From a cyanobacterium endosymbiont of Epithemia clementina EcSB (GTDB taxonomy: Bacteria > Cyanobacteriota > Cyanobacteriia > Cyanobacteriales > Microcystaceae): DNA of 32,000 bases. Position 1 is the first letter of the stretch. Each line of letters opens with the position of its first letter. The notes beneath the pieces were generated by a model, which saw only the letters and a program-made list of their open reading frames with translations, was not told the origin of the DNA and ran no database searches. Shown here one piece after another: positions 8,607-32,000 of the stretch. A program made the position numbers and the translations under genes. The stretch is taken from positions 2,890,434 through 2,922,433 of the forward strand of contig NZ_CP123991.1 in the NCBI RefSeq assembly GCF_029919255.1, read 5' to 3'.

Positions 8607-8972
8607 ATGGAATTCATTGAAATTACTAAAATTAGGTCCTACGGCTACACGGGATATTTGCCAGAAGAACAGGTATTAGGTCAGTGGTTTGAAGTTGATA
8701 TAATCATAGGACTTGATCTAACCTCCGCCGGAAACAGCGATCAAATTAAAGATACATTGGATTATCGTCAAGTGATCGCCATCGTTAAACGTCTTATTGC
8801 CACCGAAAAATTTGCCCTAGTTGAAAAACTGGCTGAGGTGATTGCTCAAAAAATATTAATTTTGAACAAGGTTCAACTAGTTAGAGTTCGTTTAAGTAAA
8901 CTGGCAGCTCCTATTCCTGATTATAACGGAAAAATTACCATTGATATGACAAAAAGACGAAAAACAATCTAA
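8607..8972 (+). CDS. folB: Dihydroneopterin aldolase
   Basis: The 121-aa protein reads ITKIRSYGYTGYLPEEQVLGQWFEVDIIIGLDL...DTLDYRQVIAIVKRLI...FALVEKLAEVIAQKIL, the FolB-family pattern. Confidence 0.85.
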   Translation: MEFIEITKIRSYGYTGYLPEEQVLGQWFEVDIIIGLDLTSAGNSDQIKDTLDYRQVIAIVKRLIATEKFALVEKLAEVIAQKILILNKVQLVRVRLSKLAAPIPDYNGKITIDMTKRRKTI

Positions 8973-13705: not shown

Positions 13706-14344
13706 GTAGATATAAATAATTTAATATATATTACTTGAATTGATATCTTTAAAAGTAACTTTTATTTGATAAATGTAGTTCTACTAAACTGCTCATATAG
13801 AATATATTAGTTAAATACCAATTTAAAAAACTTCAGAGTTGAAAATTTGCAAAATCTCTTAATCTATAAGCTCTCCTTTAAATCAACTTAAATTTATTGT
13901 TAATACCTTCTAATGTTCCTTCCAAAAAAAGGAAATAATTTTTCTAATTTAATACCAATTAAACAGCCTTTTAGCTGTAATAAGTGAGTTCTTAAAAACA
14001 TAAATTAGTTAATTTTTACAGTCCTGATACCTAAATTTGAGTCTTTTTTGAAAATTGTTCTAAATTATTCTTAAAATTGGTGTTTTAAAAGAAAAAAAGT
14101 AACATTACATAAATCTATATATAACTTAATTTTTAATTTTTTGCTTATTTCTTTTTAAGAAAATTTACTATTATTTGATTCTATATTTTTTAGGTTTTAA
14201 TTTAATTTTTAAGTTTTGTAGCTTTTTATTTAATAGGTTTTAAAATAAGCTAATTAAGCATTTACTTGTTTGATGACATAAAACATAGTTGCTAGTACTT
14301 TAGCTTATAACATTTATTTATTAAAAAGATTTAATAGGATGGTG

Positions 14345-16060
14345 TGAGATCTAGACTAATCTATTTAATCTTCCTCAAAATCTCTTTCTCCCAAACTTCT
14401 GACTATTTTGCTCTTTTTTAAAATTTTCTTACTTTTGTAATTATTACCATCATTCCTTTATGTAAATTTACCAACACTATATGATAGTAAATATGGTAAT
14501 GAAAACTAATTTATAATGAGAGGGTAATATTCTCAATATAAATGATATATCTAAAATATTATTTAGTTTCACTAAATAGTTTATCGGAATCAAAAAAATA
14601 GTACTTTTTTTTGAAAAAATCTTGGAAAGAAACTATAAAAAAATCTTGCTATAATCATATTTTATTCTTAATAACAAGAAAATTTTAAAAAATAAATAAT
14701 TAAAAATTTTCAAGATAAGAATTAAAAGCAAAGAGACTAAACAAACTTTATTAGTGAATAAAGTTTCTAAAAAATTAACTCATAAGTTAAAATTAAAACC
14801 AGCAAATGGATGAATATGGACATAATCGACAGCAGCCAGTTGGACAGGTAAAAAAATGAGATTCCTGAAAAAAGTTTAGATACTCCTATCAGATTCTAAG
14901 ATCAAAATATAGAACTTTTTAAACAAGAAATATTTATTGCAAATCAACCTTTTTAAAAAACTATATGAAATATCTTCAGAAGTAGAAATAGATATATAGC
15001 TATTTTATGAACTTTAAGTCTACTTAAAGTTCATAAAAGAAAAGTTTTTAGTACTCTCATAGAAAGATTTACTGCGACGGTAACCTAGAGCTATCAATAT
15101 TTAGTTGTATATCTATATATTTATCAAATAACTAACATGATAAACCTTATAAAATTAAATTTCAATAAAAAATATAAAATGGTCGAATTTAGTTGATGAA
15201 TATTTGGCTAAAGATGTCAAACTATCTGAAAAGAGTTTTATTAAGAGAAGATAATGCCGAACGGCGTTGTAGCAAAAAGAGAAAAATTTCTTCAGGAATT
15301 ACTAGAGAATACTTGCTAGCTTGCTCTCCAGAATTAGAGTCAGCAGAAAAATGATAGACGTTAGCAGATGATTTTTGAGGTTATGAGTATTTTGAAATAA
15401 TTAATAAAATGGAAAAATTCTTGTTTGATTTTGGTAAGATTCTCAGTCAAATACAAAAAATTAAAAATTTTATCGATGATTTTAAGTTAAATATCCTGTG
15501 TTTTATACAGATAAAATGGCAATTGGATTCAATTTAATAACTTTCTTGTCTTTTAATCATGGCAATTTAATACAATGTAAACTTTTTAAACTTCTAAGTA
15601 AACTTCTAAGGTTTTGATATTTGTAATTTTTGACCTAAATATTCCAGTATTATCTTTTTTTCTTGTTCAATTACTCCATTTCTTTTGGCTACATCGTTAA
15701 CGTCATTATTTAAGACCTCTTCGATGATTTTTATATTTAATCTTTTTGAAGATATTCTTTTTTTTAAAAAAAAACCTTACTTTTCTGTAAACTTATTTTT
15801 ACATTGATTACAATTCATTTGACGATGATTAATCCTGAGATAGACGGCTTCCTCTTCTCAAGGTAAATCTTCGATAGTTAATTTTTAATTTTAATAAAAT
15901 TGAATGGTGGCTGAACTACAATCAATACGAGTTTCTATTTGGTCTATGTTTTCAATAAATCAAACTATTCCTATATCATTTTTTATTTTATAAAAGGTAA
16001 TAATAAATTTTTCTAAATTTAAAATCTAATTTACTAAACTGAGTTTAGTTTGACTTTTTT
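14345..16060 (-). mobile_element. Decayed ISL3-family transposase gene, relic copy 1 (many stops and frameshifts; boundaries approximate)
   Basis: Minus-strand translation gives ILNLEKFIITFYKIKNDIGIV*FIENIDQIETRIDCSSATIQFY*N*KLTIEDLP*EEEAVYLRINHRQMNCNQCKNKFTEK* (the zf-ISL3 pattern LP..G..VYL.I.RRQ..C..C...FTE). It continues KIIEEVLNNDVNDVAKRNGVIEQEKKIILEYLGQKLQISKP*KFT*KFKKFTLY*IAMIKRQESY (the HTH and GIDEIA..KGQ.Y region). A C-terminal remnant KRAK*...FGRKRF*GRLNRLV* lies near 14350-14420. Confidence 0.7.
15003..15038. repeat. Perfect 16-bp inverted repeat (hairpin) inside ISL3 relic 1
   Basis: ttttatgaactttaag (15003-15018) is the exact reverse complement of cttaaagttcataaaa (15023-15038), with loop tcta. 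Confidence 0.85.
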
Positions 16061-20891: not shown

Positions 20892-21096
20892 AGAGGATTG
20901 CTTAGGATAACAGGGGTAATAAGGTAAGATAAATAGTGGTTACCGTTTAGAATTTACCAGCCGGATTAATCACTGGTCATATAGTTTAGACTCATTAGTT
21001 CGTTGTTGCTTAATTTTCTATTTCAAAATTTTCATTACTCTGTTTGAAATAAAAGTAGTAAGAATTCTTTCAAGAGGAATTACAACAATGTATGAC

Positions 21097-21126
21097 TGAT
21101 GATGTATCTTATATGATACATCATCA
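21097..21126. repeat. Perfect 12-bp hairpin with a GTATC/GATAC core
   Basis: tgatgatgtatc (21097-21108) is the exact reverse complement of gatacatcatca (21115-21126), with loop ttatat. It lies in the 1.4-kb purL/fabG divergent spacer. Confidence 0.8.
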
Positions 21127-22292
21127 ATTACCGCAATTACATTATAATTATTCCTACTATTAGTAGTGCAAAACTCTATACTACTAATGTTAATATTGAT
21201 ACTACTAATGTTTTTTGTTGTCTAGGAATAAATAAACTGAAAAAAAATAAAATCTGCCAACATTTTTTAAAACATAAAAATATGTTATGTATACTGTGCT
21301 GTTGCTACTTCGTGAGTGTTAGTTAAGCGACACTCCTCTATAAAATTACTTTTTTATATTTGTAATTTTATTTATTAAAGTTTTAAGTACTATTAGTATT
21401 CTTAGAATTTACAATAAACAACAAAATTAGTAATTGTAAAAATAAGATACTAGGAATTGAATAACAATAAGTATGTGTTAAAAAAATGAATTTTAAGAGT
21501 CGGATATTGACCAAGCTTAAAAAAAAATGTAAAGATTAATTGTTTAAATTTATCTAAGGAGATGTCTAGAGTTTAATAAGAAAAGTTTTTAATACAGATG
21601 GTTCTATAATTAGTTACTTGACTATTTAAAAACAGATTATTAGTGAGTTGTTTTTAACATCGTCTACCACGTTAGATAAAATAAGATCGTAAATTATAAT
21701 TAACTACAAAAGTAACACAGCAGAGCCAAGAGTATTATAGTTGGACTACTAAATTTAGTATAAAGTTCATTATTTAGTGTATCTAAAAAAACTAAAATAA
21801 AAACTATTGAAATAAATCAGGTTTTAAAATATCGTTTGTGCTGGGATAAATGGAGGTGTTTCAATAGAAAATGACGAGATTTTGCAAATAAATCAACTAG
21901 TTAGTTTTAAGATCAAATTTTCTGCTAAAATATTTCATAATTTAGTATTATCACATAAGTTAGAAATTTTTGTAGAGCAATAATTAGAATAAGGGAAAAA
22001 AGTAATTATAATTGACACCAGTCCATGCACTTTACAGATTCAAACAAAAGAGGTAGTTTTGTTTTTATTTAAATTGTTTGCGGATAAGAATTAGTGAAGA
22101 TATTTAAACAGTTAGAACCAGGCTTACAATCTACGAAAATATTTAGAGATTAATTATATTTACGTCAATATAAGTTCTCAGAAGGAAATAGAATACTTGA
22201 AGTCCGAGAAACTAAATGCAGAAAGAAAAGTAGTAACTTTTGATGGAAAGTATCTGTGATACTCTAGCCACTTTCGAATAAATGTTCCCTGA

Positions 22293-23093
<801 letters not shown>

Positions 23094-23188
23094 GAAATGA
23101 TTGATAGTTAATAGTGACCAGTTGTCAGTAATGCTGTGACTGGTCAACTTAATATATTAGACAATAAATAATTATATCTAATTTTTAA

Positions 23189-23216
23189 TACTTGTATCAT
23201 AGATATGATACAAGTA
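23189..23216. repeat. Perfect 12-bp hairpin with a GTATC/GATAC core, 96 nt downstream of fabG; a possible weak terminator
   Basis: tacttgtatcat (23189-23200) is the exact reverse complement of atgatacaagta (23205-23216), with loop agat. No T-run follows it. Confidence 0.8.
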
Positions 23217-23224
23217 CAACTAAG

Positions 23225-24045
23225 TTAATTGATAATAAATGATAGAAAAAGAAAAACAGCATAATTTAAACGCTTCATCAAAGATGACGGACACATTGCT
23301 TTAATTTATATACGAAAAAAAATAAAAATATCAAGCTTATTAAGCAATAAAAAAATACTTAAATTTAATCTCAAAAAAATTAAATGCCTAGACAAAATAT
23401 GTCCAGAAGCCAAAGATAAAATTTAGAGTTCTATTCAGAAAAACTGCCATGCCAAGCCAAGCTTATAAATGATCATTTGAAAAAAGTATTATCAATAGAA
23501 TATTATTATGGACGGCGCAATAGTAAAGAGAAAAAAATCTGAAATCTTATTTATTAGAACTTTCTTGTCTTTTAATCACAGCAATTTTATCGATTACGAA
23601 TCATTTCCATGTCTGAGCTTTTTATATCTGTAATTATTGACCTAGATTTTTAAACATCATTTCCATTTCTTCTTTACTCAATTAATTTCTTGTTACTACA
23701 TATTTCCAGGATATGTTCTTTTCTTGTTTAAAAAACTTAACCTTTTAAAAATTTAGAGAACCATACAAAGATTTTAGAAAAGTTTTCTAATCAAAAAAGA
23801 AGTAATCAAATGGTTAATCAATTGGAACAATTAGAGAATATGCAGAAACCTTTTTTAAAACTGTCCTAATGTTTTTGTGTAGTATTACTTTTAAGTAAAA
23901 GTCAACATTTTGACTTAATTTAACTAAAATAAAAAAACTGATATAACACTTTCTATATAAAAACTATGGCTTTTTATAAACCTATAATTGACAATTAAAT
24001 CTTGTCTGTATATTTTATATTTTTATACAAAAATTTAGGTAAAGT
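23225..24045 (-). mobile_element. Decayed, 3'-truncated ISL3-family transposase gene, relic copy 2
   Basis: Minus-strand translation gives ...LENFSKIFVWFSKFLKG*VF*TRKEHILEICSNKKLIE, then LSKEEMEMMFKNLGQ*LQI*KAQTWK*FVIDKIAVIKRQESSNK*...YYCAVHNN...IFGFWTYFV*AFNFF...SNVSVIFDEAFKL (compare PNA.IV.DRFHV). At the nucleotide level, 23557-23590 (aactttcttgtcttttaatcacagcaatttt) is shared with 15538-15570 of copy 1. Confidence 0.6.
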
Positions 24046-26899: not shown

Positions 26900-27265
26900 T
26901 ATTCACGAGTAAGTATAGTACAGTAAGGTCATATAAAATATTGTAAGTGCGATCAATTTTTAGGTTAAGACGGTTAACCCTACTATTTGTGGGTGTGTAT
27001 GAGCGATATTAAAAGAGTAATTTATCAAAAAAATTGACGTTTAAACAGCTGAAGTAATTAGTTTATTTTTCGAGATGGTATGTTCACACATTTTAAATAT
27101 AAAATATAAAACTCTTCTTCTTAAAGATAGAAATTAGTTATTTTATATCTAAAATATGTTATTTGTCTTAGACAAGACAACTCCATCTAGTTATTAAAAA
27201 TAACTAATATAACAGGAAGAAAAAAATACCTAAAAAAACATAAAAAAGTTAGTCTTTTCTTGAAG

Positions 27266-27302
27266 TTTTTGCATAAATACTTTGAATAGATTTATGCAAA
27301 AA
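27266..27302. repeat. Perfect 13-bp hairpin in the clpB-upstream AT-rich spacer
   Basis: tttttgcataaat (27266-27278) is the exact reverse complement of atttatgcaaaaa (27290-27302), with an 11-nt loop actttgaatag. Confidence 0.8.
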
Positions 27303-28122
27303 ATCTGAAATTCCAAAAAAAACTTATCTGTGTAACTAAATTATTGAATTAATTACTACTCAAAAAAACTAAGCTAAAAATGCAAAAATATTAAAATTAC
27401 TGGTTATGGACAAAGAGAAAATATCAAATCTAAATAAGAGTAGATATATTGGTTTATTCTAAATTAGTTTTTAAATAAAAAGCTTAAATTCTTACCTTGC
27501 AAAGTCTCTAATATTCAATACAAAAATACAAATTAAGTTTGTGAAGTTAAAGGAGGCATTGATAACAAGAGTTTTAGGAGTCATCAACTATTAATTTCTC
27601 GTACTTATTCTAAAAAAGCTATTTATTTTACTTAGAGACAAAAAAGATTTACATGAAGAGTAAAACCTAAATTAAACCAAGTGTATAGAATATCGTCAGT
27701 TTTATCAAAAATTTACTAAGTAAGAAACAATTTTAGAAGAATTTTGATAAAAAACTAAATTGGATATTGGTATTATTAAACTGAGCTAGTTAGTATTAAA
27801 AATATTATTTATTGTACCTAAATGTGGAATAATCAGGTATTGAATTGGAAAAACTTTTTCCCATTCTAATCAAAGAAAATTTCAATAAATAGTAAAAAAT
27901 ATTAATAATAAATTAAAGCTCATGAAGAGGAGAGCTTATGAGTTAATAAATATTGTGAGTTTTTAACCCCTAAGTTTTAAATTTAGTGTTTAACTAGTTG
28001 ACTCTATATCCTAAATCAGGTACGACTATTAATTTCAAATTAATTATTATTTATTTTTGTATTTTTTTTGTAGTTATTAAGTTTTTGTCAGTTTTTTAAA
28101 TTATTAGACTCATTTTAATCAA

Positions 28123-28329
28123 TTAACGGCTAAATTTTTGAGCTTGAGCAACCAGTCCGGCACTAACATAACGTCCGTAACTATCGAGACGATCTTGTTG
28201 AGCAGCACGAAAAGGAGATAGAAAAGTATCAACTAAGCCAGAACTCATCATCATGACAGTAGCCGCAAGAATGATATAGTTACGAATGACGATGACGTTT
28301 TCGTTAACAGTAGTTGTTTTGGTAAACAT
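28123..28329 (-). CDS. Hypothetical small protein (68 aa) with one hydrophobic segment
   Basis: The ORF is visibly richer in GC than the flanking spacer DNA and is preceded by aaggaga about 8 nt upstream of the ATG. The sequence is MFTKTTTVNENVIVIRNYIILAATVMMMSSGLVDTFLSPFRAAQQDRLDSYGRYVSAGLVAQAQKFSR. I do not recognise the family. Confidence 0.5.
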   Translation of the reverse strand: MFTKTTTVNENVIVIRNYIILAATVMMMSSGLVDTFLSPFRAAQQDRLDSYGRYVSAGLVAQAQKFSR

Positions 28330-28594
28330 CTTGGTGGTTTCTCCTTTGTGTCGACGCCTTTACTATATAGGAAACAAATTGGTGATGTCAGTCCCAAAAC
28401 CCTGTATATTGGGGATTGTAGTCGTTCTATTTTTCTCCTTAGAAGTGGAATTAAGTGGAAATTTTTCTATTCTCAATATAATTACTCTACCTACATAAAG
28501 GGTTTTAGAAGTCTCCTATTGACAAAGAGTGTTGAAGATGAAGGTATTGCTGTCATCGGAGCAGGTTGTACTACTATACTGATTTAATATTAAG

Positions 28595-29233
28595 ATGACT
28601 ATGAAATCATTGTTCATTGTATTAGAAGGAATTGACAGGGCAGGGAAGTCAACTCAAGCAGAATTATTAAAAAATTATTTTCTTACTCACCAGCAGCAAG
28701 CTGTTATTAGCTCTGAACCTACTGATGGGCCAATTGGTAGATTAATTCGTGAAGCTATGCAAAGTAAAATTATTGCGATTAAACAGAAAGAAAGCTTTGA
28801 TGAACAAATGGCTTATTTATTTACAGCAGATAGATATTATCATTTATTTAATGACATAAATGGAGTTTATAAATTAATTAATGAAAACCATACTCATGTC
28901 ATAGCAACCCGTTATTATTTTTCATCTTTAGCTTATAATTGCAATACCAAAGATGAGTTTAGTTTTGTAGCGAAACTAAACCAAAGATTTCCTGATCCTG
29001 ATGTAGTTTTTTACATCAATATTTCCTTAAAAATCGCTTTATCTAGACTTAACAATCATTCTATGAGAGAAATATATGAGACAGAAAAAAAGCTCAGAAA
29101 GGTCAGACATAACTACGAAAATATTTTTAAAACTTATGAAGGAAAAATATTTAAATTAGATGGAAGTAAATCCATAGAAGAAATACATAAGAAAATTTTA
29201 ACTTATCTTAAAGAAACTTTTAGTAGTTTTTAA
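28595..29233 (+). CDS. Divergent (archaeal-like) thymidylate / dNMP kinase family protein
   Basis: P-loop FIVLEGIDRAGKSTQAELL, SEPTDGPIGRLIRE (the nucleotide-monophosphate binding region), the DRY-type motif FTADRYYH, ATRYYFSSLAYN (compare DR...S..AY in Tmk), and PDVVFYINISLKIALSRL. The overall Tmk-family layout is present, but the sequence is far from canonical bacterial Tmk. Confidence 0.75.
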   Translation: MTMKSLFIVLEGIDRAGKSTQAELLKNYFLTHQQQAVISSEPTDGPIGRLIREAMQSKIIAIKQKESFDEQMAYLFTADRYYHLFNDINGVYKLINENHTHVIATRYYFSSLAYNCNTKDEFSFVAKLNQRFPDPDVVFYINISLKIALSRLNNHSMREIYETEKKLRKVRHNYENIFKTYEGKIFKLDGSKSIEEIHKKILTYLKETFSSF

Positions 29234-29267
29234 CCTAAAAATTTATATCTATCTGAATATTATAGAA

Positions 29268-30310
29268 TTAACTGGTAAAGCGCCAAACTAAAACACTTTG
29301 AAGTTTAAAATTCTAAAATTCTCTAAATCCATAATCTCTTCTTTTAGAAAACTTCAATTTATTATGAATACCTTCTACTTTTTGATAAAAAAAATGATAT
29401 TTTATCCAATTTGATACCTAACTATCCACTATTTTTGAGCTATAATTAATAAGTTTTAAGAGCTATAAAGTTAGTTCTAATAAACCTAACACTTACTTTT
29501 TTTTGAAAAAAAAGTCGTTATAAATTACTATTTATGTTCGTTTACATATTAAATATTTGCAATATTTAATTCAATTATTTTGACTTAACTTTTTGTTATT
29601 TTTCTTAATTTTCTTTTTTACCACTATTTTAAAGCTCTTCAAATTTTCTATATAATGGTTTTTCCTTGATCGACTAATTGAGCATTGACTTGTTTAATCA
29701 CATGTAATATATTTACTACTACTTCAGCTTGTGACATTAATTGATTTCTAATCTATTTAGAGAAAAAAATTTTCTCAGATATATACTTATATTTTTGATT
29801 TTAGTAAAAACATATTTCCCAAAAACTCTTAGAGATTTTACAATTTATCTCTCCTAATTCTTTTATTTCTATGATTATTAAGCTCACTTCTTTATTTGAG
29901 TTTAATGACGCAACAGAATAGTTTTTTTTGAAAGTAATAATTATCTCAATTTACACTGTTTTTATATCTATTTTTTAAAAGCTACAATTCTTTCTCTTAA
30001 TTTTTCAAAATTGTCTTTATTTATTGTTTACTAACTTCACTTTTTATATTTATATTTTTAATGTTCCTATTTAAGACTTCTTCAATGATTATTGTTTTAA
30101 CCATTTTATTATCTATCTGTAAAACAATAGTTAAAATTTTCTGTAAATTTATTTACATATTGATTGCATCTAATTTAAGAACGATCTATTTCAAGAGAAA
30201 CAAATTTTCTACAGAAGACAATTTTATAGTTATTAATTAATTATTTAGGCAAAATTTCTTGCTAGTTAAACTCCAATAAATATAAGTTGCTATTGAGTCT
30301 ATTTCTTCAA
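29268..30310 (-). mobile_element. Decayed ISL3-family transposase gene, relic copy 3, filling the tmk-like / thyA-like spacer
   Basis: Minus-strand translation of the 3' end gives KRRDYGFREF*NFKLQSVLVWRFTS*, the ISL3 C-terminal signature KRR.YGFRNF.NF, with the stop at 29268-29270. Upstream lie ...FVSLEIDRS*IRCNQYVNKFTENFNYCFTDR** (the zinc-finger region) and IIIEEVLNRNIKNI (HTH). Nucleotide blocks are shared with copy 1, for example tatttaagacYtcttcRatgatt and ttttctgtaaaYttattt. Confidence 0.7.
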
Positions 30311-30522
30311 CTAAGTTGCGTATTTAATACTATAGGTATAAGTAAAATTAGAATATTGGGCTTAATATAATTTAACTTAAATATAAAGCTTGTTAGAATA
30401 TTAGCTGTATAATAATTACATCTTTTTATAATGCGATTGTTGGTAATAAAACTTTGTCTTCGTGTTATAAGTTTTCATATGGCAAGTTTGTTAAAAGCAA
30501 ATTAATTATGAGTAATTAATTC

Positions 30523-32000
30523 ATGAGAATAACTCAATCAAAATATAAAGTTGAATATATTCCTCATTATCAACCCAATCAACTGATCTGTGGTTATGGA
30601 CAGACTGCTATCATTACTGGATGGACACTTCGACAGTCAGTAGCTAAACATTTAAACCCAGAAGATTATGCAGTTATTGGTAATTTGTATAGTCCTACTA
30701 GGGGAATTAGTCCTTTAATTCGTAATTTATTAGCTAACCCTCATGTTCGGTATTTAGTTATTTTGCAGGCAACAAAAGAAGATAAAAATGCGGGAGGATG
30801 TCAATGTTTGTTGGATTTTTTACAACAAGGTTTTAGACAGGGAATCAGTGATACAGGTAAAAATATATGGGTAGTGAATTCTAAGATTACTGGATATATT
30901 GACATTGAAATCCCTGCTGATATCTCAGAAAATTTACGTCAATCTTTACAGTATAAAGAAGCAAGTTCAATTGAAGAAGCAATGAATATAATCCAAGAAT
31001 TTAATCAATTTAAAATAGAACCCTGGGGTAAACCATTAACTTTTCCTGAAAGAGAAAGTTACCCAACAGTTTTACCAGGTCCTAGATATGGTCATCGAAT
31101 TGAAGGAAAAACTATTGCAGAAACTTGGGTTAAAGTTTTACATAGAATTAAAACAACAGGAACAATTAGACAAACAATTTATGGACAATGGCAAGAATTA
31201 ATTGATCTAATAGCTATTGTTACTGATGAACCACCAGAGTTTTATTTTCCTGAGCCTAATTATTTACCTATTAAAAGAAATTTTCTTAGAGATTACATTG
31301 AACAAATATTAGACGATGCGCCCCAAAAAGAAGGAGTAAAATATACATATGGACAACGGTTAAGATCATGGTTTGGACAAGACCAAATTGAACAACTAAT
31401 TAATAAATTGGTAGGAGATATTAACTCATCAAGAGCCGTCATGTCATTGTGGGATGTAAGAGATTATGAAGATAGTGATAGTCCTCCCTGTCTCAATCAT
31501 ATTTGGGTAAGAATTGTTGATAATGAATTATCCTTAACTGCTACATTTCGTAGTAATGATATGTTTTCTGCTTGGCCAGCTAATGCAATGGGATTAAGAT
31601 TTTTGCAACAATTTATCCAAGATGAAATTATCAAAAAATCAAATGATAGTCTAATTTTAGGTCCTTTAATTATTATTAGTCAAAGCGCACATATTTATAG
31701 TGACTGCTGGGAACATACACAACGAATTATTGATACAGAATATACAAAAATAAATCAAAAAAGAAATTTTGATGACCCCAGTGGCAGCTTTTTAATTTCA
31801 GTCAAAGATAATCGTATTTTTGTTGAACATATAACCCCAGGTTCAGGAGAAATTGTTAACTGTTATTCAGGTAAACTTGCTCGTCAACTATATCAAAAAA
31901 TTGCCTTAAATTCTCCTAGTATTCAAATTGAACACGCGATGTATTTAGGGACAGAATTACAAAAAGCAGAATTGTGTTTAGTTAATAAACTAAACTGTTA
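30523..32000 (+). CDS. Thymidylate-synthase-like fusion protein: MtrA-like N-domain, ThyA-like catalytic domain and a DUF4346-like C-domain (3' end lies outside the window)
   Basis: An open frame of 492 codons runs from the ATG at 30523 to the window edge. It is absent from the ORF track because no stop lies inside the window; an in-frame TAA sits at 30517. ThyA motifs occur with E. coli-like spacing: nucleophile Cys323 in SPPCLNH (nt 31489-31491), R343-S-N-D 20 residues later, and P-A-N354 11 residues after the Arg, then SAHIY. The N-terminus (aa 20-105, AIITGW...GNLYSPTRGISPLIRNLLANPHVRYLVIL...GGCQCLLDFLQQG) resembles the MtrA fold family. The C-terminus (DDPSGSFLISVKDNRIFVEH...IEHAMYLGTELQKAE) resembles DUF4346. 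Confidence 0.8.
   Translation, partial: MRITQSKYKVEYIPHYQPNQLICGYGQTAIITGWTLRQSVAKHLNPEDYAVIGNLYSPTRGISPLIRNLLANPHVRYLVILQATKEDKNAGGCQCLLDFLQQGFRQGISDTGKNIWVVNSKITGYIDIEIPADISENLRQSLQYKEASSIEEAMNIIQEFNQFKIEPWGKPLTFPERESYPTVLPGPRYGHRIEGKTIAETWVKVLHRIKTTGTIRQTIYGQWQELIDLIAIVTDEPPEFYFPEPNYLPIKRNFLRDYIEQILDDAPQKEGVKYTYGQRLRSWFGQDQIEQLINKLVGDINSSRAVMSLWDVRDYEDSDSPPCLNHIWVRIVDNELSLTATFRSNDMFSAWPANAMGLRFLQQFIQDEIIKKSNDSLILGPLIIISQSAHIYSDCWEHTQRIIDTEYTKINQKRNFDDPSGSFLISVKDNRIFVEHITPGSGEIVNCYSGKLARQLYQKIALNSPSIQIEHAMYLGTELQKAELCLVNKLNC

What the first reader, a model, noticed from the sequence alone, without database searches (positions are those of the whole stretch)
28595..32000. Divergent dNMP-kinase plus MtrA/ThyA/DUF4346 fusion: a two-gene pyrimidine-nucleotide module of unproven function
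Two same-strand genes encode an archaeal-like Tmk-family kinase and a protein of more than 492 aa whose ThyA-like core sits between an MtrA-like N-domain and a DUF4346-like C-domain. The sequence shows an intact P-loop and DRY motif in the kinase. It also shows an intact nucleophile Cys, the RSxD motif and the Asn in the ThyA-like core. From established knowledge, pairing a ThyA-family enzyme with a dedicated dNMP kinase is the logic both of ordinary dTTP synthesis and of phage pathways that make 5-hydroxymethyl-pyrimidine dNTPs (ThyA-family hydroxymethylase plus dNMP kinase). By inference, both genes stay intact while neighbouring DNA has decayed and an IS died between them, so the pair appears to be under purifying selection. 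Either it is the sole dTMP-to-dTDP route of this organism, using a non-canonical synthase, or it produces a modified pyrimidine nucleotide. As far as I know, the extra domains, whose fold family is associated with a methyltransferase subunit that handles C1 units, have no demonstrated role in such fusions.
Basis: partly seen in the sequence, partly recalled or inferred. Interest (0 to 1): 0.7.

Follow-up and report, generated by a model that had tools for sequence, protein, structure and literature searches.

The report
Housekeeping thymidylate kinase and three-domain thymidylate synthase
These two genes are the ordinary enzymes that make and phosphorylate the DNA building block dTMP in a diatom's nitrogen-fixing cyanobacterial endosymbiont; the synthase carries two extra domains that are widespread, already annotated and never explained.

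Summary
Window 28595-29233 (+) encodes a 212-aa dTMP kinase that passes NCBI's equivalog cut-off. Window 30523->32000 (+) encodes a protein with an MtrA-like domain, a ThyA core and a PterinBD-DUF4346 domain; it runs off the window, and relatives are 501-502 aa.

The kinase is the normal cyanobacterial Tmk, 72% identical to that of Rippkaea. The synthase is the standard "thymidylate synthase" of most cyanobacterial orders, 62-92% identical across the 80 best species genomes scanned. It has dUTPase, dCMP deaminase, a dCTP-deaminase-like gene or tmk beside it in 37 of those 80. In a Patescibacteria genome it sits in a dcd-thyA-tmk-dut row. In a Nanoarchaeota genome it is fused to Tmk in one polypeptide. 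All dUMP-methylase residues that align reliably are invariant in 160 loci. The residues that mark phage dCMP-modifying homologues are absent. Housekeeping dTTP synthesis is therefore strongly favoured and a modified base is unlikely.

The open point is the extra domains. The N-domain has the MtrA fold but lacks MtrA's cobalt-binding His84 and Glu54. Elsewhere the two extra domains lie next to each other as one module. These organisms reportedly lack FolA, so a role in dihydrofolate handling is worth testing. The window itself is ordinary; the family-level question is moderately interesting.

The parts
28595..29233 (+). tmk, dTMP (thymidylate) kinase, 212 aa
   Evidence: TIGR00041 equivalog 172.6 bits against a cut-off of 83.25; Pfam PF02223 148 bits. 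72% identical to Rippkaea PCC 8801 Tmk and 91.5% to that of the R. gibberula endosymbiont. The best solved relatives are all thymidylate kinases.
28628..28654 (+). Tmk P-loop GIDRAGKST (aa 12-20)
   Evidence: Read from the translation. The Arg inside the P-loop is the 'type I' (human-like) arrangement; that classification rests on my own knowledge.
28829..28837 (+). Tmk DRY motif (aa 79-81)
   Evidence: Read from the translation.
29234..30299 (.). AT-rich decayed spacer (GC about 0.22) between tmk and thyA
   Evidence: Composition. It aligns at about 75% with the R. gibberula endosymbiont spacer but mostly not with uoEpiScrs1. No sbtA or sbtB remnant was found by tblastn. No Rfam match, no terminator, and promoter-like sites at chance level.
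29301..29417 (-). Probable relic of the 3' end of an ISL3-family transposase gene
   Evidence: Pfam DDE_Tnp_ISL3 positions 200-238 of 240, E = 1.7e-4, 21.9 bits against a cut-off of 23, one of six frames. Weak: the orthologous stretch in L001 was not detected.
30300..30522 (+). Upstream region of thyA conserved among four endosymbionts; probably its own promoter and 5' leader
   Evidence: It aligns among the window, RgSB, EtSB and uoEpiScrs1 although the rest of the spacer has diverged, and it includes a conserved TATAAT. The promoter function is inferred, not shown.
30523..32000 (+). Three-domain thymidylate synthase gene (thyA type), cut off by the end of the window after 492 codons
   Evidence: 92% identical to 'thymidylate synthase' of the R. 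gibberula endosymbiont; more than 1400 homologues. Listed as thyA, EC 2.1.1.45, in all rhopalodiacean endosymbionts and UCYN-A (PMC12903740 supplement).
30523..31083 (+). N-terminal MtrA-like Rossmann-type domain (aa 1-187)
   Evidence: Profile against PDB: 5LAA E = 1.5e-11. Foldseek gives only MtrA structures as significant hits. 16 of 25 family members hit Pfam MtrA, best E = 2.6e-15. In the profile alignment MtrA's His84 and Glu54 fall opposite the consensus positions that I read as window Ala90 and Pro58.
31090..31752 (+). ThyA catalytic core, short 'methanogen-type' (aa 190-410)
   Evidence: TIGR03283 138.8 bits over aa 193-396, below its 174.55 cut-off. PF00303 is above its cut-off. Foldseek finds the ThyA fold, E about 1e-9.
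31489..31491 (+). Codon of the catalytic nucleophile Cys323 (E. coli C146)
   Evidence: BLASTP alignment to E. coli ThyA. Invariant in 160 of 160 loci.
31774..31998 (+). C-terminal PterinBD-DUF4346 domain (aa 418-492, end missing)
   Evidence: PF14251 78 bits against a cut-off of 29.6. It matches the C-terminus of the archaeal DHPS-like protein model TIGR00284 and positions 290-360 of the MtrA-paralogue model NF002128.

Best explanation
The two genes are the last dedicated steps of dTTP synthesis in a reduced cyanobacterial endosymbiont of a rhopalodiacean diatom.

- The three-domain protein is the cell's thymidylate synthase. Cys323 attacks C6 of dUMP, a methylene from a reduced folate is transferred to C5, and dTMP is released. 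This is inferred from the conserved ThyA residues, not assayed.
- Tmk then makes dTDP.
- dUMP comes from the dUTPase and dCMP deaminase genes that, in relatives, lie immediately downstream, just outside the window.
- The present tmk-1.3 kb-thyA layout is a by-product of genome reduction. The gene order tmk, sbtA, sbtB, two small ORFs, thyA of Rippkaea lost its middle, and an ISL3 element may have decayed there.
- The MtrA-like and DUF4346 domains are two halves of a module that is contiguous in archaeal MtrA paralogues. Its DUF4346 half also ends the archaeal DHPS-like enzyme. Here the ThyA core sits between the halves.
- The most likely role of that module is to bind or position the pterin/folate co-substrate for a minimal ThyA core. 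This last step is inference only.
For: Identity of the kinase:
- Tmk passes the TIGR00041 equivalog cut-off and is orthologous to Rippkaea, Crocosphaera and Synechocystis Tmk.

Identity of the synthase:
- It passes Pfam Thymidylat_synt.
- Y94, C146, R166, S167, D169, N177, H207 and Y209 (E. coli numbering) are invariant in 80 genome loci and 80 viral loci.
- The model's core has the ThyA fold.

Genomic context:
- 37 of 80 genome loci have dUTPase (21), dCMP deaminase (20), tmk (14) or a DCD-like gene (12) on the same strand within 2.5 kb.
- A Patescibacteria genome has the row dcd-thyA-tmk-dut.
- A Nanoarchaeota genome has a single MtrA-ThyA-DUF4346-Tmk polypeptide followed by dCMP deaminase.

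Retention and selection:
- The gene is kept in all six rhopalodiacean endosymbionts and in the very reduced UCYN-A. It is the only enzyme listed for EC 2.1.1.45 in the published reconstruction (PMC12903740 supplement).
- It is absent from Synechocystis, where ThyX is the predicted synthase (PMC7133116).
- dN/dS is 0.13-0.27.

Module nature of the extra domains:
- The N-domain matches NF002128 positions 144-259 and the C-domain matches positions 290-360 of the same 390-position model.
Against: - No enzyme of this three-domain family has been assayed, as far as my searches show: 0 papers mention DUF4346 or PterinBD, and none listed concern this family for PF14251, TIGR03283 or MJ0757.
- The protein falls short of the TIGR03283 equivalog cut-off (138.8 against 174.55).
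- The position of E. coli L143, thought to exclude water and so prevent hydroxymethylation, is Ser here and Ser, Gly, Asn or Ala across the family.
- The alignment of the N-terminal third of the core, including the E58 equivalent, is uncertain.
- Absence of thyX from this genome was not tested. A paper citing Myllykallio 2003 says Nostoc PCC 7120 has ThyX, so co-occurrence in some cyanobacteria is possible.
- ThyA chemistry yields dihydrofolate, yet FolA is reported missing from these organisms. The plain ThyA cycle therefore leaves a gap.
Confidence: 0.85

Rival explanations
1. The enzyme is a thymidylate synthase whose extra domains change the cofactor cycle. The MtrA-like plus PterinBD module would hold, re-reduce or otherwise recycle the pterin. 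The enzyme would then not depend on a separate dihydrofolate reductase, functionally like the DHFR-TS fusions of protists and plants but with unrelated domains.
For: [quoted passage not shown]
- The architecture occurs in lineages with very small genomes: Patescibacteria, Nanoarchaeota, Woesearchaeota and UCYN-A.
- Both extra domains are as conserved as the catalytic core. Family-wide near-invariant residues include W34, G53, Y56, R67 and N68 in the N-domain and H471, Y474 and E478 in the C-domain.
- Pfam now labels the C-domain a pterin-binding domain.
- DUF4346 also ends the pterin-handling archaeal DHPS-like protein model TIGR00284.
Against: - No redox cofactor site was identified. MtrA's cobalt ligands His84 and Glu54 are not conserved, and no NAD(P)H or flavin family matched.
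- The model coordinates could not be inspected, so domain packing around the active site is unknown.
- The correlation between this enzyme and absence of FolA was taken from one paper, not measured here.
- A simple substrate-binding or oligomerisation role explains the same conservation.
Confidence: 0.2
2. The pair makes a modified pyrimidine nucleotide, for example 5-hydroxymethyl-dUMP that is then phosphorylated by the kinase, as in phage hypermodification pathways.
For: - ThyA homologue plus dNMP kinase is the logic of phage pathways (PMC13326640).
- The L143-equivalent is small and polar (Ser or Gly) rather than bulky hydrophobic.
- The best single Foldseek hit of the core is a phage dCMP hydroxylase, 9IQU (TM 0.74 on the target).
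- The three-domain gene is carried by at least 125 IMG/VR contigs, at least one of them a genuine phage.
Against: - Asn at N177 (uracil, not cytosine) and Asp at D169 are invariant. The L143 position is never Asp or Glu. The diagnostic substitutions N177D, L143D/E and D169N are all absent.
- The kinase is the housekeeping Tmk, also present in cyanobacteria that lack this synthase.
- The neighbours are dUMP suppliers typical of ordinary dTMP synthesis.
- The enzyme is the only thymidylate synthase listed for these genomes, so dTMP must come from somewhere.
- The 9IQU hit is statistically no better than dozens of true thymidylate synthases.
Confidence: 0.03
3. The N-domain binds a corrinoid (pseudocobalamin) as MtrA does, making this a B12-dependent C1 transferase.
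For: - Clear homology and fold match to cobalamin-binding MtrA.
- The shared motif RG-I-x-x-L-I-R-N-L-L-A-N-P against LGIEKVIANIISNP.
- Cyanobacteria make pseudocobalamin (PMC12903740).
Against: - The cobalt ligand His84 and its partner Glu54 fall opposite what I read as window Ala90 and Pro58, and no His appears in that loop in the distant family members inspected.
- EtSB, EaSB and RaSB are reported unable to make pseudocobalamin yet keep the intact gene.
- ThyA chemistry needs no corrinoid.
Confidence: 0.04

Closest known systems
Canonical thymidylate synthase ThyA (E. coli, L. casei, human; EC 2.1.1.45)
   Same: Same fold. Same nucleophile Cys and the same dUMP-binding residues R166, S167, D169, N177, H207, Y209 and Y94. 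Same pathway context, with dUTPase, dCMP deaminase and Tmk nearby.
   Different: - Only about 25% identity over about 135 residues.
- The core is about 220 aa against 264.
- L143 is replaced by Ser, H147 by Leu and D205 by Ser.
- The core is flanked by two extra domains absent from all solved ThyA structures.
Methanogen-type thymidylate synthase (NCBIfam TIGR03283; the MJ0757 type, by my own knowledge)
   Same: It is the best-scoring family model for the core: 138.8 bits over aa 193-396, covering model positions 3-198 of 201. It is a short ThyA core.
   Different: The score is below the equivalog cut-off of 174.55. The TIGR03283 model is only 201 positions long, so it covers the core alone. 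The biochemistry of the methanogen enzymes is itself poorly known (PMC9012536).
Bifunctional DHFR-TS of protozoa and plants
   Same: A thymidylate synthase permanently fused to another folate-related domain. Fusion is a precedent for coupling dTMP synthesis to folate handling.
   Different: The fused domains here are MtrA-like and DUF4346, not DHFR. The matches to DHFR-TS chains cover the TS part only: sequence hits span query residues 283-365, and the full-length Foldseek alignments have rmsd about 20 A. No reductase activity is shown or predicted.
MtrA, the cobalamin-binding subunit of methyl-H4MPT:CoM methyltransferase (PDB 5LAA, 5L8X, 8Q3V)
   Same: The N-domain is homologous (profile E = 1.5e-11) and has the same Rossmann-type fold.
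   Different: His84 and Glu54, which ligate cobalt in MtrA, are not conserved. There is no transmembrane anchor. The window protein itself scores below the Pfam MtrA cut-off (14.9 against 25 bits).
Phage ThyA-homologue plus dNMP-kinase hypermodification pathways (T4 gp42 dCMP hydroxymethylase; RB69, DLP3 and HY126 5-hydroxy-dCMP synthases)
   Same: A ThyA-fold enzyme paired with a nucleotide kinase. The core is structurally as close to HY126 AfhB (9IQU) as to true thymidylate synthases.
   Different: It lacks N177D, L143D/E and D169N. The kinase is the host's housekeeping Tmk. The context is chromosomal and housekeeping.
ThyX (flavin-dependent thymidylate synthase)
   Same: Same physiological product. 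Synechocystis, which has no orthologue of this enzyme, is predicted to use ThyX for this step.
   Different: An unrelated fold and mechanism. ThyX does not oxidise THF to DHF, whereas a ThyA-type enzyme is expected to.

Membership tests
dTMP kinase (Tmk, TIGR00041 / PF02223) | Score above the curated equivalog cut-off | tested here: met
   172.6 bits against 83.25; Pfam 148.3 against 27.
dTMP kinase (Tmk, TIGR00041 / PF02223) | P-loop GxxxxGKS/T and the DR(Y/H) motif | tested here: met
   GIDRAGKST at aa 12-20 and DRY at aa 79-81.
dTMP kinase (Tmk, TIGR00041 / PF02223) | Orthology to the housekeeping tmk of relatives | tested here: met
   72% identical over the full length to Rippkaea Tmk. Placed in one orthologue row with cce_1174 and slr0379.
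dTMP kinase (Tmk, TIGR00041 / PF02223) | Phosphorylates dTMP | not testable with these tools
   Needs an enzyme assay or complementation of a tmk(ts) mutant.
ThyA-type thymidylate synthase (PF00303) | Score above the Pfam gathering threshold, and the ThyA fold | tested here: met
   58.4 bits against 24.3. Foldseek hits to many thymidylate synthases, E about 1e-9 and probability 1.00.
ThyA-type thymidylate synthase (PF00303) | Catalytic Cys (C146) and the dUMP-binding residues R166, S167, D169, N177, H207, Y209 and Y94 | tested here: met
   All are present and invariant in 160 of 160 loci.
ThyA-type thymidylate synthase (PF00303) | Glu58 equivalent and the folate-binding elements (W80, W83, C-terminal segment) | tested here: inconclusive
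   The N-terminal third of the core does not align reliably with E. coli ThyA. An invariant Glu225 exists, but its equivalence to E58 is uncertain. The core ends where DUF4346 begins.
ThyA-type thymidylate synthase (PF00303) | Bulky hydrophobic residue at L143, proposed to exclude water | tested here: not met
   Ser320 here. Across 160 loci the position is Ser, Gly, Asn or Ala. The criterion is taken from PMC13326640, which calls it 'thought to'.
ThyA-type thymidylate synthase (PF00303) | Converts dUMP plus CH2-THF to dTMP plus DHF | not testable with these tools
   No assay of any three-domain member was found.
Methanogen-type thymidylate synthase equivalog (TIGR03283) | Score above the curated cut-off | tested here: not met
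   138.8 bits against 174.55.
MtrA (PF04208, cobalamin-binding methyltransferase subunit) | MtrA Rossmann-type fold and sequence homology | tested here: met
   Foldseek: 5L8X, 5LAA and 9QTR with E from 2e-7 to 4e-6. Profile against 5LAA, E = 1.5e-11.
MtrA (PF04208, cobalamin-binding methyltransferase subunit) | Window protein above the Pfam gathering threshold | tested here: not met
   14.9 bits against 25. More distant family members do pass.
MtrA (PF04208, cobalamin-binding methyltransferase subunit) | Cobalt ligand His84 hydrogen-bonded to Glu54 | tested here: not met
   In the profile alignment His84 falls opposite an Ala and Glu54 opposite a small residue of the family consensus; I read these as window Ala90 and Pro58. 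The residue roles come from PMC4915002.
PterinBD-DUF4346 (PF14251) | Score above the Pfam gathering threshold | tested here: met
   78 bits against 29.6.
PterinBD-DUF4346 (PF14251) | Binds a pterin | not testable with these tools
   Only the Pfam name suggests it. No paper was found.
Phage pyrimidine-hypermodifying ThyA homologues (dCMP/dUMP hydroxymethylase, 5-hydroxy-dCMP synthase) | N177D (cytosine substrate), L143D/E, or D169N | tested here: not met
   Asn, Ser/Gly/Asn/Ala and Asp at these positions in 160 of 160 loci.
ISL3-family insertion sequence (relic) | Transposase homology above threshold, terminal inverted repeats | tested here: inconclusive
   One 39-aa match, 21.9 bits against a cut-off of 23. 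Ends not sought. The orthologous L001 stretch did not match.

The most novel reading that the evidence does not exclude
The MtrA-like plus PterinBD module makes this widespread ThyA-type enzyme self-sufficient for its folate cycle, by binding and recycling or re-reducing the pterin. That would explain how FolA-less cyanobacteria, their endosymbionts, Patescibacteria and DPANN archaea run a ThyA-type thymidylate synthase. It would be a previously unrecognised solution to the 'life without dihydrofolate reductase' problem.
Probability: 0.2. Interest if true: 0.8.

Novelty: new member of a known kind. Interest (0 to 1): 0.4.

Why it matters
For this window the result is ordinary. A reduced endosymbiont has kept its dTMP synthase and dTMP kinase, and both are already annotated as such in sister genomes.

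What matters lies at family level. The three-domain thymidylate synthase is the predominant ThyA-type enzyme of cyanobacteria. It also occurs in Chloroflexota, Patescibacteria, DPANN archaea and phages. It has, as far as I could find, never been purified. It works in organisms reported to lack FolA. If the extra domains turn out to handle dihydrofolate, that would close a 20-year-old gap in folate metabolism. It would also define a thymidylate synthase type distinct from the human enzyme.

Tried and rejected
Searches that found nothing:
- Literature searches for DUF4346 and PterinBD returned 0 papers. Searches for MJ0757, TIGR03283 and PF14251 gave nothing on this family.
- An exact look-up of the kinase found no record, so the window's genome is not in the collection.
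- tblastn for sbtA, sbtB or DUF29 remnants in the tmk-thyA spacer found none.
- Pfam on the orthologous spacers of two sister endosymbionts, to confirm the ISL3 relic, gave no hit.
- Rfam on 26900-30700, to look for a THF or other riboswitch upstream of thyA, gave nothing credible. There were no terminators and promoter-like sites were at chance level.
- The listing of cluster members on ten distant family members returned no names.

The thyX test:
- I found no way to query one chosen genome.
- The held copy of the orthologue table in PMC12903740 is cut at about Cyan8802-2000. The absence of 'thyX' or 'sll1635' from it is therefore not conclusive.

Explanations considered and rejected:
- Cobalamin dependence, because MtrA's His84 and Glu54 are not conserved.
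- A cytosine substrate, because Asn177 is invariant.
- The kinase as a dedicated dNMP kinase, because it is the housekeeping orthologue.

Full report
WHERE THE WINDOW COMES FROM. The synthase is 92% identical to 'thymidylate synthase' of the cyanobacterial endosymbiont of Rhopalodia gibberula. It is 91% identical to that of the Epithemia turgida spheroid body, 85% to uoEpiScrs1 and 75-76% to Crocosphaera. The other genes in the window are housekeeping genes: rpsL, a rhomboid, folB, sbcC, purF, fabG and clpB, with purL placed by synteny with L002. They are separated by stretches of 21-25% GC. No exact match to the kinase is on record. The window therefore comes from a related but different diatom endosymbiont ('spheroid body' or diazoplast) with a decaying genome.

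THE OBSERVATION. Gene A (28595..29233, +) encodes 212 aa. It scores 172.6 bits against NCBIfam's dTMP-kinase equivalog TIGR00041 (cut-off 83.25) and 148 bits against Pfam Thymidylate_kin. It has the P-loop GIDRAGKST and a DRY motif. Its closest solved relatives are all thymidylate kinases.

Gene B starts at 30523 and is open to the last base of the window, giving 492 aa. Orthologues are 501-502 aa. Pfam finds Thymidylat_synt (58.4 bits, aa 270-407) and PterinBD-DUF4346 (78 bits, aa 418-489). NCBIfam's best model for the core is the methanogen-type synthase TIGR03283, at 138.8 bits over aa 193-396, which is below its 174.55 cut-off. That places Cys323 on C146, R343/S344/D346 on R166/S167/D169, Asn354 on N177 and H390/Y392 on H207/Y209.

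The N-terminal 187 residues are MtrA-like. A profile of this domain from 25 diverse family members hits the MtrA structures 5LAA (E = 1.5e-11), 8Q3V (9e-11) and 5L8X (1.2e-7). Sixteen of the 25 members hit Pfam MtrA, with a best E of 2.6e-15. An AlphaFold model of the domain (pLDDT 87) has MtrA structures as its only significant Foldseek hits in the PDB, with TM 0.57-0.67.

SELECTION AND THE SPACER. Pairwise dN/dS among the window, two sister endosymbionts and free-living relatives is 0.16-0.27 for tmk and 0.13-0.24 for the synthase. For comparison, clpB gives about 0.05-0.07. Both genes are under purifying selection.

The 1289-bp spacer has 22% GC. Translated in six frames, it gives one Pfam match: the last 39 positions of the ISL3 transposase domain, on the minus strand at 29301..29417 (E = 1.7e-4, 21.9 bits, cut-off 23). 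The homologous stretch in the R. gibberula endosymbiont looks similar by eye but did not score. A dead IS is therefore plausible but not proven.

The last 220 bp or so before the start codon are conserved among four endosymbionts, although the rest of the spacer has diverged. They contain a conserved TATAAT. I read this as the synthase's own promoter and leader, which is an inference. No riboswitch or terminator was found.

THE KINASE. It is not a special or divergent dNMP kinase. It is 72% identical over its full length to Rippkaea PCC 8801 Tmk. The orthologue table of a 2026 comparative study puts it in one row with Cyan8802-1281, cce_1174, Synechocystis slr0379 and the tmk of all six rhopalodiacean endosymbionts (PMC12903740 supplement). 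Synechocystis has this tmk but not the three-domain synthase. The kinase therefore does not depend on the synthase type.

THE SYNTHASE. It belongs to a large, already annotated family. The word-indexed search returned more than 1400 homologues. The best 120 are all about 500 aa, carry the same Pfam pair and are commonly named 'thymidylate synthase'. A scan of one genome per species found more than 575 loci. The best 80, at 62-92% identity, come from most cyanobacterial orders, including Microcystis, Nostocales, Oscillatoriales-type genera, Chroococcidiopsidales, Thermosynechococcaceae, Prochloron and UCYN-A.

A filter-free HMMER search of 1.84 billion cluster representatives found 367 clusters at E <= 1e-30. 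Full-length matches extend down to about 32% identity. A search from one distant member showed the same three Pfam domains (MtrA + Thymidylat_synt + DUF4346) in Chloroflexota, Patescibacteria, KSB1, Nanoarchaeota, Woesearchaeota and Thermoproteota. The residues that align reliably with ThyA's active site are invariant in all 80 genome loci and all 80 viral loci examined.

GENOMIC CONTEXT. In the R. gibberula and uoEpiScrs1 endosymbionts the order is clpB(-), a 68-aa ORF(-), tmk, synthase, dUTPase (142 aa), dCMP deaminase (177 aa). The two dUMP-supplying genes must therefore lie just beyond the end of this window.

In Crocosphaera subtropica the synthase is followed by a DCD-like gene, dUTPase and dCMP deaminase, with no tmk nearby. 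In Rippkaea the order is tmk, sbtA, sbtB, two small ORFs, synthase, a DCD-like gene and then further dUMP-pathway genes. sbtA, sbtB and the small ORFs are marked as lost in all the endosymbionts. The spacer in the window is therefore what remains of that interval, although no sbtA or sbtB remnant is detectable.

Across the 80 species loci, 37 have at least one dTTP-pathway gene on the same strand within 2.5 kb: dUTPase in 21, dCMP deaminase in 20, tmk in 14 and a DCD-like gene in 12. tmk lies 14-97 bp upstream in six Microcystis genomes and in Gomphosphaeria, SU2 and one further cyanobacterial MAG (P01_G01_bin.49).

Outside cyanobacteria the linkage recurs. A Patescibacteria genome has dcd, synthase, tmk and a dcd/dut-like gene in a row. 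A Nanoarchaeota genome encodes MtrA-ThyA-DUF4346-Tmk as one 708-aa protein followed by dCMP deaminase. This recurrent linkage, including a gene fusion, is strong evidence that the synthase's product is Tmk's substrate.

The published pathway reconstruction lists this gene as the only entry for EC 2.1.1.45 in Rippkaea, in all six endosymbionts and in UCYN-A. Synechocystis lacks it and is predicted to use ThyX.

AGAINST A MODIFIED BASE. A 2026 paper on phage ThyA homologues gives the diagnostic positions. N177D switches the substrate to dCMP, L143D/E accompanies hydroxymethylation and D169N marks 5-hydroxy-dCMP synthases (PMC13326640). Here N177 is Asn and D169 is Asp in 160 of 160 loci, and L143 is never acidic.

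Two points keep a small residue of doubt. The L143 position is Ser, Gly, Asn or Ala rather than bulky. The best single Foldseek hit of the core is the phage HY126 dCMP hydroxylase 9IQU, though its E-value is no better than those of dozens of true thymidylate synthases.

THE EXTRA DOMAINS. Shown:
- The N-domain is homologous to MtrA.
- According to Wagner et al. 2016, MtrA binds cobalt through His84, which is hydrogen-bonded to Glu54 (PMC4915002). In the profile alignment these positions fall opposite the consensus residues that I read as window Ala90 and Pro58. No His occupies that loop in the distant family members I inspected. His-on cobalamin binding of the MtrA kind is therefore not conserved.
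- The window's N-domain matches positions 144-259, and its C-domain positions 290-360, of one and the same 390-position NCBIfam model of an MtrA paralogue (NF002128). The C-domain also matches the C-terminus of the archaeal dihydropteroate-synthase-like protein model TIGR00284.

Inferred: the two extra domains are the halves of a module that is contiguous elsewhere, and the ThyA core has been inserted between them. The DUF4346 half is also attached to a second pterin-handling enzyme. The extra domains are conserved about as well as the core.

The most economical reading is that the module binds or positions the folate for a minimal ThyA core. [quoted passage not shown] A ThyA-type enzyme should generate dihydrofolate at every turnover, so a built-in way of coping with it would be valuable. 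I found no cofactor-binding signature that would support a reductase function. I could not inspect the packing of the full-length model (pLDDT 74). I give this reading about 0.2.

WHAT WAS NOT SETTLED. I could not search this or any single genome for thyX, canonical thyA or folA. The held copy of the orthologue table is truncated at about Cyan8802-2000, so its silence on thyX is not decisive. One paper, citing Myllykallio 2003, says Nostoc PCC 7120 has ThyX, so the two synthase types may coexist in some cyanobacteria. No enzymology of any three-domain member turned up.

VERDICT. The gene is a new orthologue in a known, annotated family. Interest for this locus is modest. It is raised somewhat by the unexplained and widely conserved accessory module, and by its possible link to the missing dihydrofolate reductase of cyanobacteria.

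Noticed in passing
L148:5001-6530 (IMG/VR contig of 188 kb); also L086-L165: The complete three-domain synthase gene is present on at least 125 IMG/VR viral contigs at 45-63% identity. In L148 it lies between an endolysin-like gene and a large terminase subunit, so at least some of these are real phages carrying it as a nucleotide-metabolism gene. Others (for example L087, which by eye seems to carry a dnaN-like ORF) may be host DNA. Only 4 of 80 have a dCMP deaminase nearby and none has tmk or dut.
   Followed up: partly
L166:8001-10127 (Nanoarchaeota MAG JBDLJZ010000001.1); protein P0347, also P0367: A four-domain polypeptide MtrA-ThyA-DUF4346-Tmk (708 aa), followed by dCMP deaminase. This is a gene fusion of exactly the two activities found side by side in the window.
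   Followed up: yes
window 28123-28329 (-): A 68-aa ORF between clpB and tmk is conserved in the R. gibberula and uoEpiScrs1 endosymbionts (88-94% aa identity, dN/dS 0.14-0.38). It has no Pfam match. It is probably a real small protein of unknown function.
   Followed up: partly
L005:9134-9367 (Rippkaea orientalis PCC 8801): A 77-aa ORF just upstream of the synthase, flagged as weak DUF4346, is a scrambled fragment of the synthase itself. It joins a piece of the core (HRFKTTGTIR) to the C-domain motif (VEHGMYLGTELQKAEI), so it is a partial duplication relic.
   Followed up: partly
L026 (UCYN-A4 MAG) and PMC12903740 supplement: UCYN-A keeps the synthase, dUTPase and dCMP deaminase as neighbours, but no tmk orthologue is listed for it. 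This raises the question of who phosphorylates dTMP there.
   Followed up: no
window 30300-30522 (+): About 220 bp upstream of the synthase are conserved among four endosymbionts, while the rest of the spacer is not. The stretch includes a TATAAT box about 110 nt before the ATG. No Rfam family matches it.
   Followed up: partly
window 14001-16000, 21001-22000, 23001-24000 and 27001-28000: Further long stretches of 21-26% GC without ORFs of 100 aa or more look like decayed genes or intergenic wasteland typical of a reducing genome. They were not examined for pseudogene remnants.
   Followed up: no
window 8607-8972 (+): folB (dihydroneopterin aldolase, 107 bits) is retained in the same window. 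Part of folate synthesis is therefore kept, even though the published reconstruction finds PABA synthesis and the final DHFR step missing.
   Followed up: no
model m6651b3746b63 against the PDB: The top structural neighbour of the ThyA core is the recently solved flavin-dependent phage dCMP hydroxylase AfhB (9IQU, 217 aa), a similarly short ThyA-fold protein. The diagnostic residues differ, but it shows that minimal ThyA cores can change cofactor.
   Followed up: partly
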